Shown one piece after another: positions 18,799-45,525 of a stretch of 64,000 nt of DNA. Origin of the DNA: Octopus sinensis (taxonomy: Eukaryota); contig NC_042997.1 in NCBI RefSeq assembly GCF_006345805.1, positions 29,698,001 through 29,762,000 of the forward strand. Direction: 5' to 3'. The number at the start of each line of letters is the position of its first letter. Within the stretch, counting starts at the first letter, position 1. The position numbers and the translations under genes are program-made. The notes under the pieces are model-generated. The model was not told the DNA's origin. It saw nothing but the letters and a program-made list of their open reading frames with translations, and made no database searches.

Positions 18799-18887
18799 TT
18801 GATTGATTGATTCTAGTTTCAGCTTATGAGCTGTGGCCATGCTGGGGCACCGCCATTTTTCTTTCTTCTTCTCTTTTTTTTTTCTTT
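18799..18887 (-). mobile_element. A-rich linker plus LINE/SINE-type 3' tail ending in (TCAA)3, fused to the 7SL copy
   Basis: The minus strand reads AAAGAAAAAAAAAAGAGAAGAAGAAAGAAAAA-TGGCGGTGCCCCAGCATGGCCACAGCTCATAAGCTGAAACTAGAA-TCAATCAATCAA. Degenerate tails of the same type occur at ~14685-14745 (-) and ~24315-24370 (+). Confidence 0.7.
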
Positions 18888-19175
18888 AAAGGTTGGAGTT
18901 CAATTATATCGAACAGGCTGCCAGCCGACGACTATTCACAGGCGCGATCCCACTACTGCTCGACACGGGGCCTTTTGCCTGCTGCGTTTCCGCCCTGGAC
19001 TGAAGCGACCCTCCTTAGACAACCTGGTCCTGATGAGCTCCCTCTCCAGCACCATATTGATGCCGAGCTTAGCGCGGACACCCGATCGCCATAGAAGACC
19101 GACTACCAGGACTCCCATCCTCAAACCGGTCAACCAACCAAGCCTCCGAGTAGCTGGATTACAGGAGCACGCCAC
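18888..19175 (-). ncRNA. RN7SL: 7SL / SRP RNA copy, 5'-truncated by ~10 nt (probable retrocopy)
   Basis: The reverse complement reads GTGGCGTGCTCCTGTAATCCAGCTACTCGGAGGCT...CTATGGCGATCGGGTGTCCGCGCTAAGCTCGGCATCAATATGGTG...ACCAGGTTGTCTAAGGAGGG...CCAGGGCGGAAACGCAGCAGG...CAGTAGTGGGATCGCGCCTGTGAATAG...TTT, colinear with metazoan 7SL. It has the Alu-domain UGUAA motif, the helix 6 GGAG loop and the helix 8 GCG-GAAA-CGC with CAGG/AGCAG. The usual 5' GCCGGGCGCG-like start is absent. Confidence 0.93.
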
Positions 19176-19395
19176 AATTTAATCGTATTTTCTAACTACA
19201 CCTCAAAATATTTCCTATCTTCATAAACTGTAGAGAATGCAAAACATTACACACGCCTACATAAAAAAAAAGCTTACATATAAGTACTAACATATTAAAA
19301 ACTACACAGTCACGCTCAAACAGAAGTATACCCTTACACCCATTAGAATACATACAGGCAATAGGAAGACAAAAACACACAAATATATATGTATA

Positions 19396-35749: not shown

Positions 35750-36984
35750 CAGGGGTTGGACAAAATAATGGAAATGCCATAAAATTTCAAACAAATTTAT
35801 TTTAATATGTGGTAAGACCACCTTTGGGAGTAATTACAGCTTGAATTCTACGAGGTATGGACTCGTACAAAGTTTGAATTGTTTCCATAGGAATTTTTGT
35901 CCGTTCTTCAGCTAAAACTATCTCCAGTTCTTGTAGTGATGATGGTGGCGGATATCGACTCCTTACTTGTGTTTCTAAAATGTACCATAAATGTTCAATA
36001 ATATTGAGATTTGGGGGCTGTGGTGGCCAGATAAGATGTTCAACTTCACTAGAATGTTCCTCGCCCCATTCAGTAACAACTTTAGTTGTATGAATTGGTG
36101 CATTAGCATCCTGAAAGATTGCGTTTCCTTCCGGAAATAGTTCCGCAACCATTGAATGAATTTGATCAGATAAAATACTTAAATAGTCTTGACTATTAAT
36201 TCTGCCATAAAGAGAAACCAATGGGCCGTCGGATTTCTTGTATATAGCCCTCCAGATCATCACAGATTCTCCTCCATGTTTAACAGTTGGAAGAAGGCAG
36301 TCTGGGTCAAATACTTCTTTGGGCTGTCTCCACCTTATACTCGGCCGGTGGTCGGAAATAAGTTAAAGGATGACTCTAGGGACCAATTCTGTAGGTTTCT
36401 TACTCCACTCTAAACGCTTTACAACGTTTGTTTTTGAAAGTTATGGTTTTCTGATAGCAACCCGCCCGTGAAATCCGGCTTTGTGCAGCTACCGGAGAAC
36501 AGTTTTGTAGAAACTGGGTTCTCCAGGTAGTCATTAAGCTCTGCAGTAATTTTGGTAGCTGTACTTATGTGATCTTTTCTAACCATTTGCGTAAGATTTC
36601 GACGGTCCCTATCTGAAAGTTTTGATTTCCTTCCGGACTTTTGTTTCGACGAGGAGGTTTTTCCTTTTTTCTCAAATTCTGTCATATCTTTCGAGACAGT
36701 ACTTCTTGATACACCAAATATTTCGGCTGTTTTTGTTACGCTAGCGCCTGCCATACGAGCACCAACAATTTGACCTCTTTGAAAGTCCGATTGATCTGTC
36801 ACTTTACAGAATTTTAATTAACTCTTTCTGATGATATCTGAAACGAAAACAGCAATTTTAGCAAAACATATTAAGCATCACTAATAATAAATCCAAAAAT
36901 AAACAAGTTTTTGACGATTTTATAGATATTTCAAAATTACGATGCTTTGATGATAGGCGTTTCTATTCTTTTGTCCAACTCCTG
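35750..36984 (-). mobile_element. Tc1-family DNA transposon, full length (~1235 bp), frameshifted transposase
   Basis: TIRs caggggttggacaaaataatggaaa / tttctattcttttgtccaactcctg with TA duplications (35748-49, 36985-86). ORFs 36419-36802 (paired-like HTH, RGQIVGARMAGASV) and 35802-36263 (FQDANAPIH...NLNIIEHLW, DD34E region). Confidence 0.95.
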
Positions 36985-40289: not shown

Positions 40290-40940
40290 GAAAGCTTAGA
40301 CTGTTATACGTGACATCACAAGGCAAACAAAAATTGCTGTGTACCATGAATGTGTACCATGAATATTGCTCCTTTACGCATGTGAGACATGGACCCTTTA
40401 CAAACGTCATGTAAATGTCCATGAACGCTTCCATCAGAGATGTCTGAGACACATTCTAAATGTTGGCTGGACCTTGAAAACTCCAGATGCACAGGACTTG
40501 AGGAAAGCTTTTACCTTGAGTATTGAGCGATGGTGCACAAGCACCGGTTACGTCGGACTGGAAACATTGTTATAATAAATGATTGCAGAATTCCTAAACA
40601 GACGCTATATGAGGAACTTGTTAGTGGAAAGCGACCCTGGCAGATGCCAAGACTGCTATTTAAGGACTGTGTAAAGTCCTTATTAAAGGCCTGTGAAATG
40701 TGGGAGGTTGACTGGGAGAGCAATGCTGGCCACCACCAGGGATGGAGGAAATAAGTAAAGGAGGGGTACTGATATCTTTGAAAGAGCACGTATTCTTCAT
40801 GAAGAATTTAAGCGTGCTGCTAGAAAACGCACGGCTAGTGTAGTGAATGGGAAGCTTTGTCTGCCTACAATGTTTGGAGTCGTGTATGTTTGTCAACAGC
40901 ATGGTTCGTTAGTCACCAATGGAACCGTAAGTGTAGACTT
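40290..40940 (+). pseudogene. RTE-clade LINE ORF C-terminal part
   Basis: LLYACETWTLYKRHVNVHERFHQRCLRHILNVGW and RLRRTGNI...RIPKQTLYEELVSGKR...FKDCVK. Confidence 0.88.
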
Positions 40941-41050
40941 GAGCGTACAATCTTCGTAAAGCTCAGTAACGGTTTTCTGCGGTCACGAATGTGCGGCCAC
41001 CGTATACATGCGTCTACATACATACATGCATACATACATACATACATACA

Positions 41051-41127
<77 letters not shown>

Positions 41128-41129
41128 AC

Positions 41130-41958
41130 TTCGTTTTGGGATTTGGTTTGCGGGATTCTTTATGTGAGTTCGCGTGTTGAATCATATTATGTTTGGCGGT
41201 TGTATACCACGTGTTCAACCTGTTTGCTTTGTCACAGGCTCTTTGTATATTATGCCAGTCTTTGTTTCTATATTTAGAGCAGGTACCTTTGGTTTCATTA
41301 GGTATGATGTTATCTAACTTCTTTCTAGCACCCCTGTGTACTCGAATACTATCTTTCTGATCATATCCAGGGAATTGCATGAGGTGCATGAAGTTTTGTA
41401 CATGTCTCTTTTTTTCATAGGCTTTGCCTAAAGGAGACACATTTTTCATTACCCTAACTAAGTCTGCTATCAGTATCTTAATTTCCATGTTGCGTGACAA
41501 AGCTGAGTTCTTGTGAACAACATATTTTGAACCTATGGGTTTCATGTAATAGGCGTGGTGGAGCTGCACTCTGTTTTTTGCAATCTCTAACCCAATTTCA
41601 GTATCAAGGATGGGTAGTCTATTGTTGGAGTGTCTAGTTGGGTAATCTATAGTACTCTTGATACTTTGGTGGATGGAGTTAGCTACTTGCAGGATGCTCT
41701 TCATTATGTCCCTCTCATTAATGTTAATAGAGTTGATTTTAACTATGATATGTCATCTACGTACCTACTGTAAAGTAGAGGAGTTGTGGACTGTTCTGTT
41801 TTGCTAAGGATTGATTAAGTTTTCTGTCCCATCAGGTCATGAAGAAGCCGGCCACATATCCAACTACACCGACACCAATGGCTGCACCTTGAGCCTGCAA
41901 GTATAGTTTCTTGTTAAACTTTACTATGTGGCTCTTCGCGGTGGTTCTTATGCTAATC
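41130..41958 (-). mobile_element. Penelope-like element RT fragment (second PLE family)
   Basis: The minus strand encodes KLYLQAQGAAIG, LYSRYVDDI (~41748-41776) and IDYPTRHSNNRLPILDTE...YYMKPIGSKYVVHKNSAL. Confidence 0.85.
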
Positions 41959-44089: not shown

Positions 44090-44765
44090 AAAATTCAAAA
44101 ACTAGAGTAATGTGGAGAAATATATACAGTGATAGGTATGTAATCGTGAATTAAAATATGTACAGAGATCAGAGTTGGTTATGCGTACATATTTAGACAT
44201 GTTCTGTTCTTTTCGATGAATCAATTTTCTTTATTTAATCGTTCTTGTAATGAAATTGTATCTTTGCACTGGGAGAAGAGGAAGACTGTGAAATTTGGTT
44301 GATGTTGCCTGCACATCACTCTATGTGTTCACTTAAAGGAATCCCTCCGTATTGCGGGAACCGAAACTGCTCTTTATTTAGAGTGGTTCTCCGTCTCAGT
44401 GACATACTCGTCTGTCCTATATATGTATATCCACCACCCGAGTAGGTTATTACATAAATTAGATTCTCAGTGAAGTTGATTTTAATTGTTCACCTCTCTC
44501 CTTTTTGAAAAGGAATATCTGAACCTTGAAGTAGGTTGGGGCATGTTCCACTCTTTGGGCGTCCACATTTTTAACCGCAATTGTTAGAAGTCTCTTTAAT
44601 GATTTGTATTGCTTTTTGCGTTTGAGGAATCTATGTCCTTTCAATATGCTGTTTATTTTTGGGTCTCTAGTTTGTAAAGGAATTTTCCCCAATAGTATTG
44701 TATGACTCATTGTTTTTAGGGTTCTGAGTTGATACATACAGTAGTGCTTTGAGATGAGGTGTAGT
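43724..44765 (-). mobile_element. Penelope-like element 3' fragment (GIY-YIG region and 3' repeat), same family as 2127-3365
   Basis: Colinear nucleotide similarity to 2127-3165. Peptide LQTRDPKINSILKGHRFLKRKKQYKSLKRLL. Confidence 0.85.
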
Positions 44766-45525
44766 AGTACTGTTTTGAGGTTTCTCTTAAATGAATCAAT
44801 GAATAAGCGCCATTCAGCTGGAACATGCTCTTGGAATAAACAGCGAAATAACTCATCAGTGTTATTACTGAAATAAAGTGGTCTATCAACAGAGAAGCAT
44901 GAAGTGAGATTCCTATATCTCTTCCTGAAATGAGCAATACAAGCATCTTTCTTAAGCAGACACCTTTCTTGGAGACGAGATGCCAATAGTTCAGCTTTAT
45001 CCTTCGACAATGACAACTCTCTAACTAAATCATTTAACTCGCCTTGAGAAAATTTCTGTGGTACGTCTTCATATTCAATCAGGAAATATGCATCCACAGC
45101 AGTAGTATTTTCTTCAGGAAATACATCTTCGTCAGATATCTGAAGGCCAATTTCTGATTGTATTGGAATAGGAATATCATCATCGTTGTGTGTCTTTTTG
45201 CTGATTCCAAGTTGGTCTTTACAGTAAACCCACATACATTAACGTTGCAGAAATAACAGTCCATGAAATGATCCTTTGGCTCTCTCCATATCATAAGTAT
45301 TGCAAACGGCATTGCTCTCTTCCTCTTATTTAGCCAATCCCTTAGTCTATTTGAACATTCTGATCAGATGATGTGCAGGGCCCAACTCTTATCTTGATCC
45401 CTGAGAGAACAGCCAAAGTATAACTGGCAGATCTTCTTGATTTCATTTGTGATGGCACGTTGCTGAGCTTTGGCGGTAAATGAACCACAGACATAACAAA
45501 ATAAGGACTTTTCTTGCAATGCCTG
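44759..45525 (-). pseudogene. DNA-transposase N-terminal half, CMC-Chapaev3-like, frameshifted
   Basis: CKKSP..CYVCG...YFGCSLRDQDKSWALHI...MPFAILMIWREPKDHFMDCYFC...FSQGELNDLVRELSLSKDKAELLASRLQE...EWRLFIDSFKRNLKTVLLH. The family name is assigned from memory of these motifs. Confidence 0.75.

What the first reader, a model, noticed from the sequence alone, without database searches (positions are those of the whole stretch)
18799..19175. 7SL RNA fused to a LINE/SINE 3' tail: candidate 7SL-derived SINE or chimeric retrocopy in a probable cephalopod
Seen: the minus strand carries ~288 nt of 7SL ending in the Pol III-type TTT. It continues directly into ~32 nt of A-rich sequence, then a 45-nt tail (TGGCGGTGCCCCAGCATGGCCACAGCTCATAAGCTGAAACTAGAA) and (TCAA)3. 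Degenerate versions of this tail occur elsewhere in the window. No clear TSD is visible. Known: SINEs borrow LINE 3' tails for stringent recognition, CR1/L2-type tails end in short tandem repeats, RT template switching yields small-RNA/LINE chimeras (e.g. U6-L1), and 7SL-derived SINEs (Alu, B1) are taxonomically rare. Inference: either RT primed on the LINE/SINE tail and switched to 7SL, or this is a member of a full-length-7SL SINE family, which I do not know of in molluscs.
Basis: partly seen in the sequence, partly recalled or inferred. Interest (0 to 1): 0.82.

Follow-up and report, generated by a model that had tools for sequence, protein, structure and literature searches.

The report
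Octopus 7SL-LINE tail chimeric retrocopy
This is a single, likely inactive DNA copy of the 7SL RNA joined to the short end piece of a jumping gene, likely formed when the copying enzyme hopped from one RNA onto the other; most scattered 7SL, U6, 5S and U2 copies examined in this probable octopus genome carry such joins, so it is not a new 7SL-derived SINE family.

Summary
The anatomy is confirmed. A 7SL copy (Rfam 213 bits, first 8 nt missing, 2 of 290 nt different from a source gene) runs through TTT and a 29-nt purine linker into the last 60 nt of a young APE-RT LINE, likely CR1 clade. There is no TSD.

The SINE reading fails. The junction is unique in the genome. The genome holds about 50 recognisable 7SL 3' ends. 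Of 41 dispersed copies, 31 by script (37 by eye) are joined to a LINE-type tail or SINE, with 27 of 27 scored junctions different.

U6 (32 of 45), 5S (15 of 15) and U2 (10 of 12) show the same joins. They fall at the base of the tail hairpin, where 10 of 30 LINE copies also end, or at a SINE's 5' start. [quoted passage not shown]

Small-RNA/LINE chimeras are known in vertebrates. The breadth and fixed join point in a mollusc were not found in my searches. The empty-site test was not done. The 8 earlier scan notes shown (of 67) did not describe this.

The parts
18888..19177 (-). 7SL (SRP) RNA retrocopy, missing the first 8 nt of the source gene and ending in TTT
   Evidence: Rfam RF00017 213.3 bits; 2 differences in 290 nt from gene L002 on contig C5; gene-type upstream element absent
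18859..18887 (-). 29-nt purine-only (A/G) linker that is not templated by the 7SL genes or the LINE copies examined; likely a copy of an added A-rich 3' tail on the 7SL RNA, or RT slippage
   Evidence: Sequence; absent from gene 3' flanks and from the LINE sequence upstream of the tail; unique in the genome; longest of 24 scored 7SL linkers
18811..18858 (-). 3' tail of an APE-RT non-LTR retrotransposon (likely CR1 clade): AAA plus a predicted two-hairpin element
   Evidence: Identical to the 3' end of LINE copies such as L052 and L044; ORF upstream carries RVT_1 and Exo_endo_phos_2; two predicted hairpins, -18 kcal/mol, z -2.6
18799..18810 (-). (TCAA)3 terminal repeat of the LINE subfamily, the likely priming end
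   Evidence: Same repeat ends the LINE copies; 2,725 exact copies of hairpin 2 plus TCAATCAA

Best explanation
The locus is a unique 7SL-LINE-tail chimera, likely made in one retrotransposition event in which the LINE reverse transcriptase copied its own 60-nt 3' end, likely ran off that template's 5' end and jumped onto the 3' end of a 7SL RNA. Shown: the parts, the LINE partner, the unique junction, the same sense-strand joins for U6, 5S and U2 with at least six tails and three SINE heads, and a pile-up of LINE 5' ends at the hairpin base. Inferred: priming at (TCAA)n; a template shortened to the protein-bound hairpins; end-to-end jumping; the purine linker as a copy of an A-tailed 7SL RNA; loss of the last 8 nt of cDNA at integration. 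The copy is likely not transcribed by Pol III because it lacks part of the A box and the upstream element.
For: Junction unique in the genome; 27 of 27 scored 7SL junctions distinct. 31 of 41 dispersed 7SL copies have a same-strand tail or SINE head within 42 nt, against 4 of 1,500 random window positions; 37 of 41 by eye. U6: 32 of 45, all within 19 nt. 5S: 15 of 15 dispersed copies and 29 of 30 copies of one trailer variant, by eye. U2: 10 of 12 dispersed copies by eye. In the 7SL tree the only well-supported clade joins gene L021 with tails A, B, C and a SINE head, so copies sort by source gene rather than by tail. LINE 5' ends: 10 of 30 lie 0-4 nt upstream of the hairpin, 0 of 30 at 5-54 nt. 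SINE partners are mostly joined at their 5' start. Both parts are young: 7SL 2 of 290 nt from a gene, tail identical to LINE copies. The pattern matches the platypus U6-L2 and U6-Mon-1 chimeras described for stringent LINEs (PMC4476161, section 10).
Against: No TSD and no empty site, so single-event insertion is not shown directly for this locus. The tree is poorly resolved (1 of 38 inner branches well supported; 11 of 52 loci left out as too short). DNA alone cannot separate template jumping from RNA ligation. The linker here is the longest seen and resembles a poly(A) tail. The linker-length difference between 7SL and U6 is modest (median 5.5 vs 4 nt, one-sided p 0.013) and includes one copy (L112) whose linker is a duplicated SINE piece. 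The CR1 assignment rests on recalled motifs, not a tree with named references. U6, LINE-tail and pattern samples were the first places listed, not random draws.
Confidence: 0.8

Rival explanations
1. The two RNAs were joined first, by an RNA ligase such as RtcB acting on a cleaved LINE tail fragment, and the fused RNA was then retrotransposed.
For: This route is shown for human U6/L1 (PMC6789731, abstract). The sharp 5' boundary at the hairpin base fits a cleavage product. It gives the same sense orientation as template jumping (PMC13174262, section 17).
Against: RtcB joined a 2',3'-cyclic phosphate to a 5'-OH. 7SL, 5S and pre-U2 are not known to end in a cyclic phosphate, and primary Pol III SINE transcripts start with a triphosphate (both recalled). 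Yet joins to SINE 5' starts are among the commonest class.
Confidence: 0.1
2. Two independent insertions: an A-tailed 7SL processed pseudogene, later hit in its A-tail by a tail-only LINE copy.
For: The linker is 29-32 purines; tail-only copies are about one third of LINE copies and lie in AT-rich DNA; no TSD spans the whole.
Against: Dispersed 7SL copies without a partner are rare (4 of 41 by eye), which leaves little pool of free targets. Background adjacency is 4 of 1,500. The 7SL and the tail are both nearly unmutated. Chimera flanks are not gene flanks, which argues against targeted insertion behind small-RNA genes.
Confidence: 0.06
3. The locus is a member or master of a full-length-7SL SINE family mobilised by the CR1-like LINE.
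For: 8 of 41 dispersed 7SL copies were scored as tail A, and three of them (L008, L011, L017) have similar junctions. This copy has only three Ts, so Pol III could read into the tail.
Against: The junction is unique. No other copy has both private substitutions. L008, L011 and L017 differ in T-run and in LINE subfamily ending, and the changes they share against gene L021 are also in tail B, tail C and SINE-head copies. LINE copies with the same tail outnumber 7SL chimeras by over 500-fold, which Kojima's criterion reads as independent chimeras (PMC4494074, passages). Known 7SL SINEs lack the S domain (PMC7245038, part 1); this copy keeps it.
Confidence: 0.04

Closest known systems
U6-L2 and U6-Mon-1 chimeras of platypus; U6-L2, U6-RTE and U6-SINE chimeras of anole (Doucet et al. 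2015, PMC4476161; passages and section 10)
   Same: Small RNA joined in sense to a short 3' piece of a stringent LINE or to its SINE; small or no TSD; short tandem repeat at the 3' end; few retrocopies without a partner.
   Different: That survey of non-L1 LINEs followed U6 in vertebrates, and in mammals it found sense template switching largely restricted to U6 and U6atac. Here 7SL, 5S and the Pol II RNA U2 (some copies with precursor trailers) are captured too, in a mollusc, and the join sits at a fixed hairpin base.
Human 7SL/LINE-1 and other small-RNA/LINE-1 chimeras (Law and Burns 2026, PMC13174262; abstract, sections 11 and 17)
   Same: 7SL RNA inserted together with a LINE 3' part.
   Different: L1 partner with long TSDs; rare (a few to 21 loci per newly found type); 5S and tRNA mostly antisense (twin priming). 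Here the partner is non-L1, the joins are sense and they make up most dispersed copies.
7SL-derived SINEs: Alu, B1 and hagfish SINE1-1_EBu (Kojima 2020, PMC7245038; part 1 of 4)
   Same: 7SL-derived 5' part; the hagfish element also has a borrowed LINE-type tail and arose as a chimera.
   Different: Those are families of thousands of copies from master elements, with the S domain deleted and the promoter intact. This is one copy with a private junction, the full S domain and a clipped A box.
U6/L1 chimeric RNAs made by RtcB (Moldovan et al. 2019, PMC6789731; abstract and outline)
   Same: Same end product in DNA: small RNA, its U-run, then a LINE 3' piece.
   Different: Needs the U6 cyclic phosphate and a 5'-OH partner, which does not readily cover 7SL, 5S, U2 or joins to SINE 5' starts.

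Membership tests
7SL-derived SINE (SINE1) | 5' part derived from 7SL RNA | tested here: met
   Rfam RF00017, 213.3 bits
7SL-derived SINE (SINE1) | Many dispersed copies sharing one head-tail junction from a master copy | tested here: not met
   Junction unique; 27 of 27 junctions distinct; about 50 7SL 3' ends in the whole genome
7SL-derived SINE (SINE1) | Shared diagnostic changes that separate copies from the source gene | tested here: not met
   The two private changes occur together in no other of 41 aligned copies; copies sort by source gene, with weak tree support
7SL-derived SINE (SINE1) | Alu domain kept and S domain deleted | tested here: not met
   Full S domain present, 5' helix strand clipped; feature from PMC7245038
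7SL-derived SINE (SINE1) | Intact internal Pol III promoter and transcription through the tail | tested here: inconclusive
   First 8 nt, covering part of the A-box region, and the upstream element are missing; no RNA data were laid on the locus
Small-RNA/LINE chimeric retrocopy | Small RNA 3' end joined in sense to a 5'-truncated LINE 3' end | tested here: met
Small-RNA/LINE chimeric retrocopy | Independent junctions, with plain LINE copies far outnumbering chimeras | tested here: met
   5,905 exact tail copies against 8 scored 7SL-tail A chimeras
Small-RNA/LINE chimeric retrocopy | No promoter or flank of the source gene | tested here: met
   Upstream and downstream flanks differ from the C5 genes
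Small-RNA/LINE chimeric retrocopy | Single insertion event shown by a spanning TSD or an empty site | tested here: inconclusive
   No TSD, which is common for L2-type chimeras; the empty site was not examined
CR1-clade LINE (partner) | APE endonuclease plus RT, structured 3' tail ending in short tandem repeats | tested here: met
   PF14529 and PF00078 in copies of the family; two predicted hairpins and (TCAA)n
CR1-clade LINE (partner) | RT phylogeny groups with named CR1 elements | not tested
   No named references were returned; the clade call rests on recalled motifs in the translation

The most novel reading that the evidence does not exclude
Octopus LINEs release their protein-bound 3' double hairpin as a discrete RNA of about 60 nt that works as a portable handle. 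It integrates alone (about a third of copies) or is joined end-to-end to almost any nuclear small RNA, including unprocessed 5S and U2 precursors and A-tailed 7SL. The genome would then be a running SINE nursery in which 12 of 27 scored 7SL chimeras lack a four-T stop and could seed the first invertebrate 7SL SINE, and the 5S-SINE fusions may already be a family.
Probability: 0.25. Interest if true: 0.65.

Novelty: new variant of a known kind. Interest (0 to 1): 0.4.

Why it matters
Template switching is the proposed way that SINEs gain LINE tails (PMC4476161), but the intermediates are rarely seen in numbers. This genome holds dozens to hundreds of them for four RNA classes and many partners, with a fixed join point that makes jumping versus ligation testable. 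It also shows that dozens of full-length-7SL fusions arose without founding a family, in line with the view that 7SL SINEs need the Alu-domain-only form. The single locus has no sign of function.

Tried and rejected
Other copies of the tail in the window: none. TSD: none. tRNA gene in the window: none. Long ORFs near the locus: only a 121-codon stop-free frame on the strand opposite the 7SL, not taken as a gene. SINE subfamily L008/L011/L017: rejected. Need for a 3' U-run: rejected, because U2 copies ending in C-rich sequence are joined too. Site-specific insertion behind small-RNA genes, as Tx1-type elements do (lead from note e1-9502757): rejected, because chimeras lack gene flanks and the partner ORF does not read as Tx1 (recalled motifs). 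Public runs holding the stretch were listed (20 of 24 rows, 12 studies), but none was laid on it, so they give no evidence on an empty site or on expression. The homologue search named no LINE clade. Paper searches for octopus + SINE + 7SL, cephalopod + snRNA + chimera + retrotransposon + pseudogene, octopus + CR1 + LINE + SINE and template jumping + 5S + chimera listed no description of these chimeras in cephalopods. The library lacks most subscription papers and Repbase, and I read no supplements.

Full report
Observation. Rfam finds one family in the window, Metazoa_SRP at 18888-19178 on the minus strand, 213.3 bits. The flanks share no direct repeat. The claim of degenerate tails elsewhere in the window failed four searches.

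Source genes. A search of the own genome G000 (2.72 Gb) scored 40 of 526 candidates. An exhaustive pattern count gave 50 7SL 3' ends at up to 2 mismatches. I examined all 50 plus 2 more. Eleven lie on contig C5 with long T-runs, and ten of these have a shared type of upstream element; I treat the eleven as genes or cluster copies. The window copy differs from gene L002 at 2 of 290 nt. It lacks the first 8 nt and the upstream element. Human 7SL has its A box at positions 6-15 (PMC7245038, part 1 of 4), so the promoter here is likely clipped.

Partner. The tail 28-mer has 5,905 exact copies. Of the first 30, 14 continue upstream into a LINE body, 5 into a tRNA-type SINE, 10 are tail-only and 1 is a U6 fusion (read by eye). 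Eight LINE copies are 91-99% alike over up to 2.9 kb. Their ORFs carry RVT_1 (E 4e-29) and Exo_endo_phos_2. The motifs in the translation look like the CR1 clade by recall; I did not test this with a tree. The best named relative is from Argonauta hians, 63% identical, so the host is likely an octopod. A repeat annotation of Octopus vulgaris lists recently active CR1 families and small '5S', 'U' and 'U-L1' SINE classes, with no mention of 7SL (PMC13282606, passages and Table 1). The tail folds into two adjacent hairpins (-18 kcal/mol, z -2.6; 5 of 200 shuffles fold as well).

SINE family or sum of chimeras. The window's linker-tail junction occurs once in the genome at up to 2 mismatches. Of 41 dispersed 7SL copies, a script assigned 31 to a same-strand tail or SINE head within 42 nt: tail A 8, tail B 7, tail C 5, tail F 2, SINE heads 9. 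The background was 4 of 1,500 random window positions. Six more are clear by eye (L009, L014, L029, L113, L124, L126) and four have no partner (L108, L110, L114, L119). Under a stricter rule, 27 of 27 junctions differ. A tree of 41 rows (11 of 52 loci dropped as shorter than 240 nt) has one well-supported clade among 38 inner branches; it holds gene L021 with tails A, B, C and a SINE head. Tail A copies fall on both sides of the weak main split. Kojima's test, whether plain LINE copies with the same 3' end far outnumber the chimeras (PMC4494074, passages), points to independent chimeras.

Controls with other RNAs. U6 has 388 3'-end matches, including a tandem array. Of 45 dispersed places examined (the first listed, on C1-C4; two are copies of one event), 32 were assigned, all within 19 nt. 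For 5S, 47 matches were scored; I read 18, of which 3 are array or gene-like and 15 of 15 dispersed copies are joined. One 5S variant with a short 3' trailer has 120 matches, and 29 of 30 read are joined, 25 to one SINE head with varying T-runs. For U2, I read 46 of 48 matches. Twelve lack the gene upstream flank, and 10 of those are joined, several through the precursor trailer. A 3' U-run is therefore not required.

Where the join falls. In 30 LINE-tail loci picked by the 3'-most motif, 10 end 0-4 nt upstream of the first hairpin, none at 5-54 nt, 3 inside the hairpin and 17 at 55 nt or more (rough binomial p about 3e-10; one of the 10 is the U6 chimera). Chimeras use the same point, or the 5' start of a SINE; a minority join to internal SINE positions (L009, L014, L124). 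Both main join points read as a template's 5' end. A pause at the hairpin would be expected on entry, at its 3' side, so an end just past its 5' side fits better with an RNA trimmed back to a protein-bound structure (inference).

Mechanism. Most likely the LINE enzyme primes at (TCAA)n, copies the shortened tail, runs off it and jumps to the 3' end of a 7SL RNA. End-to-end jumping is described for the R2 enzyme (Bibillo and Eickbush 2004; title seen only in a reference list). The purine linker is likely a copy of an A-rich tail on the RNA. Human 7SL and other small RNAs are mono- and oligoadenylated (PMC12811392, abstract). 7SL linkers here are a little longer than U6 linkers (median 5.5 vs 4 nt, n 24 and 30, p 0.013) and richer in G (26 of 180 vs 2 of 108 nt). 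This support is weak, and slippage is as possible. RNA ligation by RtcB (PMC6789731, abstract) remains a rival, but its end chemistry fits U6 only. Two separate insertions are unlikely given the frequencies, though no empty site was examined.

Comparison. U6 chimeras with L2, RTE, CR1-like elements and their SINEs are described in platypus, anole, opossum and turkey (PMC4476161, passages and section 10). Human 7SL/L1 chimeras are described as rare (PMC13174262, sections 11 and 17). The locus is thus a known kind of object. The features I did not find in print are the mollusc setting, sense capture of 7SL, 5S and U2 by non-L1 partners in most dispersed copies, and the fixed join point. Supplements and Repbase entries that I did not see could hold some of this.

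Verdict. By eye, 12 of the 27 junctions, including this one, lack four Ts, so such chimeras could in principle be read through into the tail; none has amplified. Interest 0.4.

Noticed in passing
L287-L316 (30 of 120 matches); also L233, L235, L238: A 5S rRNA variant with a short 3' trailer is joined to one tRNA-type SINE head in 25 of 30 copies. This is either many independent captures or an older 5S-headed SINE family. No source gene with this trailer was among the 30.
   Followed up: partly
L168-L197 and L031-L060: About one third of the LINE's copies consist of the 55-60 nt tail alone and start 0-4 nt before the first hairpin, a sharp truncation hot spot.
   Followed up: partly
L031, L034, L037, L043, L048: A tRNA-type SINE of about 220 nt shares the same tail as the LINE but ends in a different repeat, a clear SINE-LINE pair.
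   Followed up: no
L278, L279, L273, L274: U2 retrocopies include the precursor trailer beyond the mature 3' end, so unprocessed U2 was likely captured.
   Followed up: partly
L076-L099 (C1, about 141.83-141.96 Mb): A tandem array of at least 28 U6 genes of a variant 5' type, which also supplies many of the U6 chimeras.
   Followed up: no
L002-L006, L010, L012, L013, L020, L021, L147 (C5, 115-125 Mb): The 7SL genes form a cluster with two 3'-end types, and both types feed retrocopies.
   Followed up: partly
L007-L030, L070-L167: At least five related tails (A-E) share a GGCGGTG...CAGCATGGC first hairpin but differ in the second hairpin and terminal repeat, which suggests several sister LINE families. 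Only the partner of tail A was traced.
   Followed up: no
window 24161(-), 49625(-), 53651(+), 55177(+), 5476(-): Five tRNA-type SINE copies of two families with tails unrelated to the finding.
   Followed up: partly
window 35802-36362(-), 40913-41752(-), 44459-45238(-): Stop-free frames of 186-279 codons outside the listed microsatellites for most of their length; not identified.
   Followed up: no
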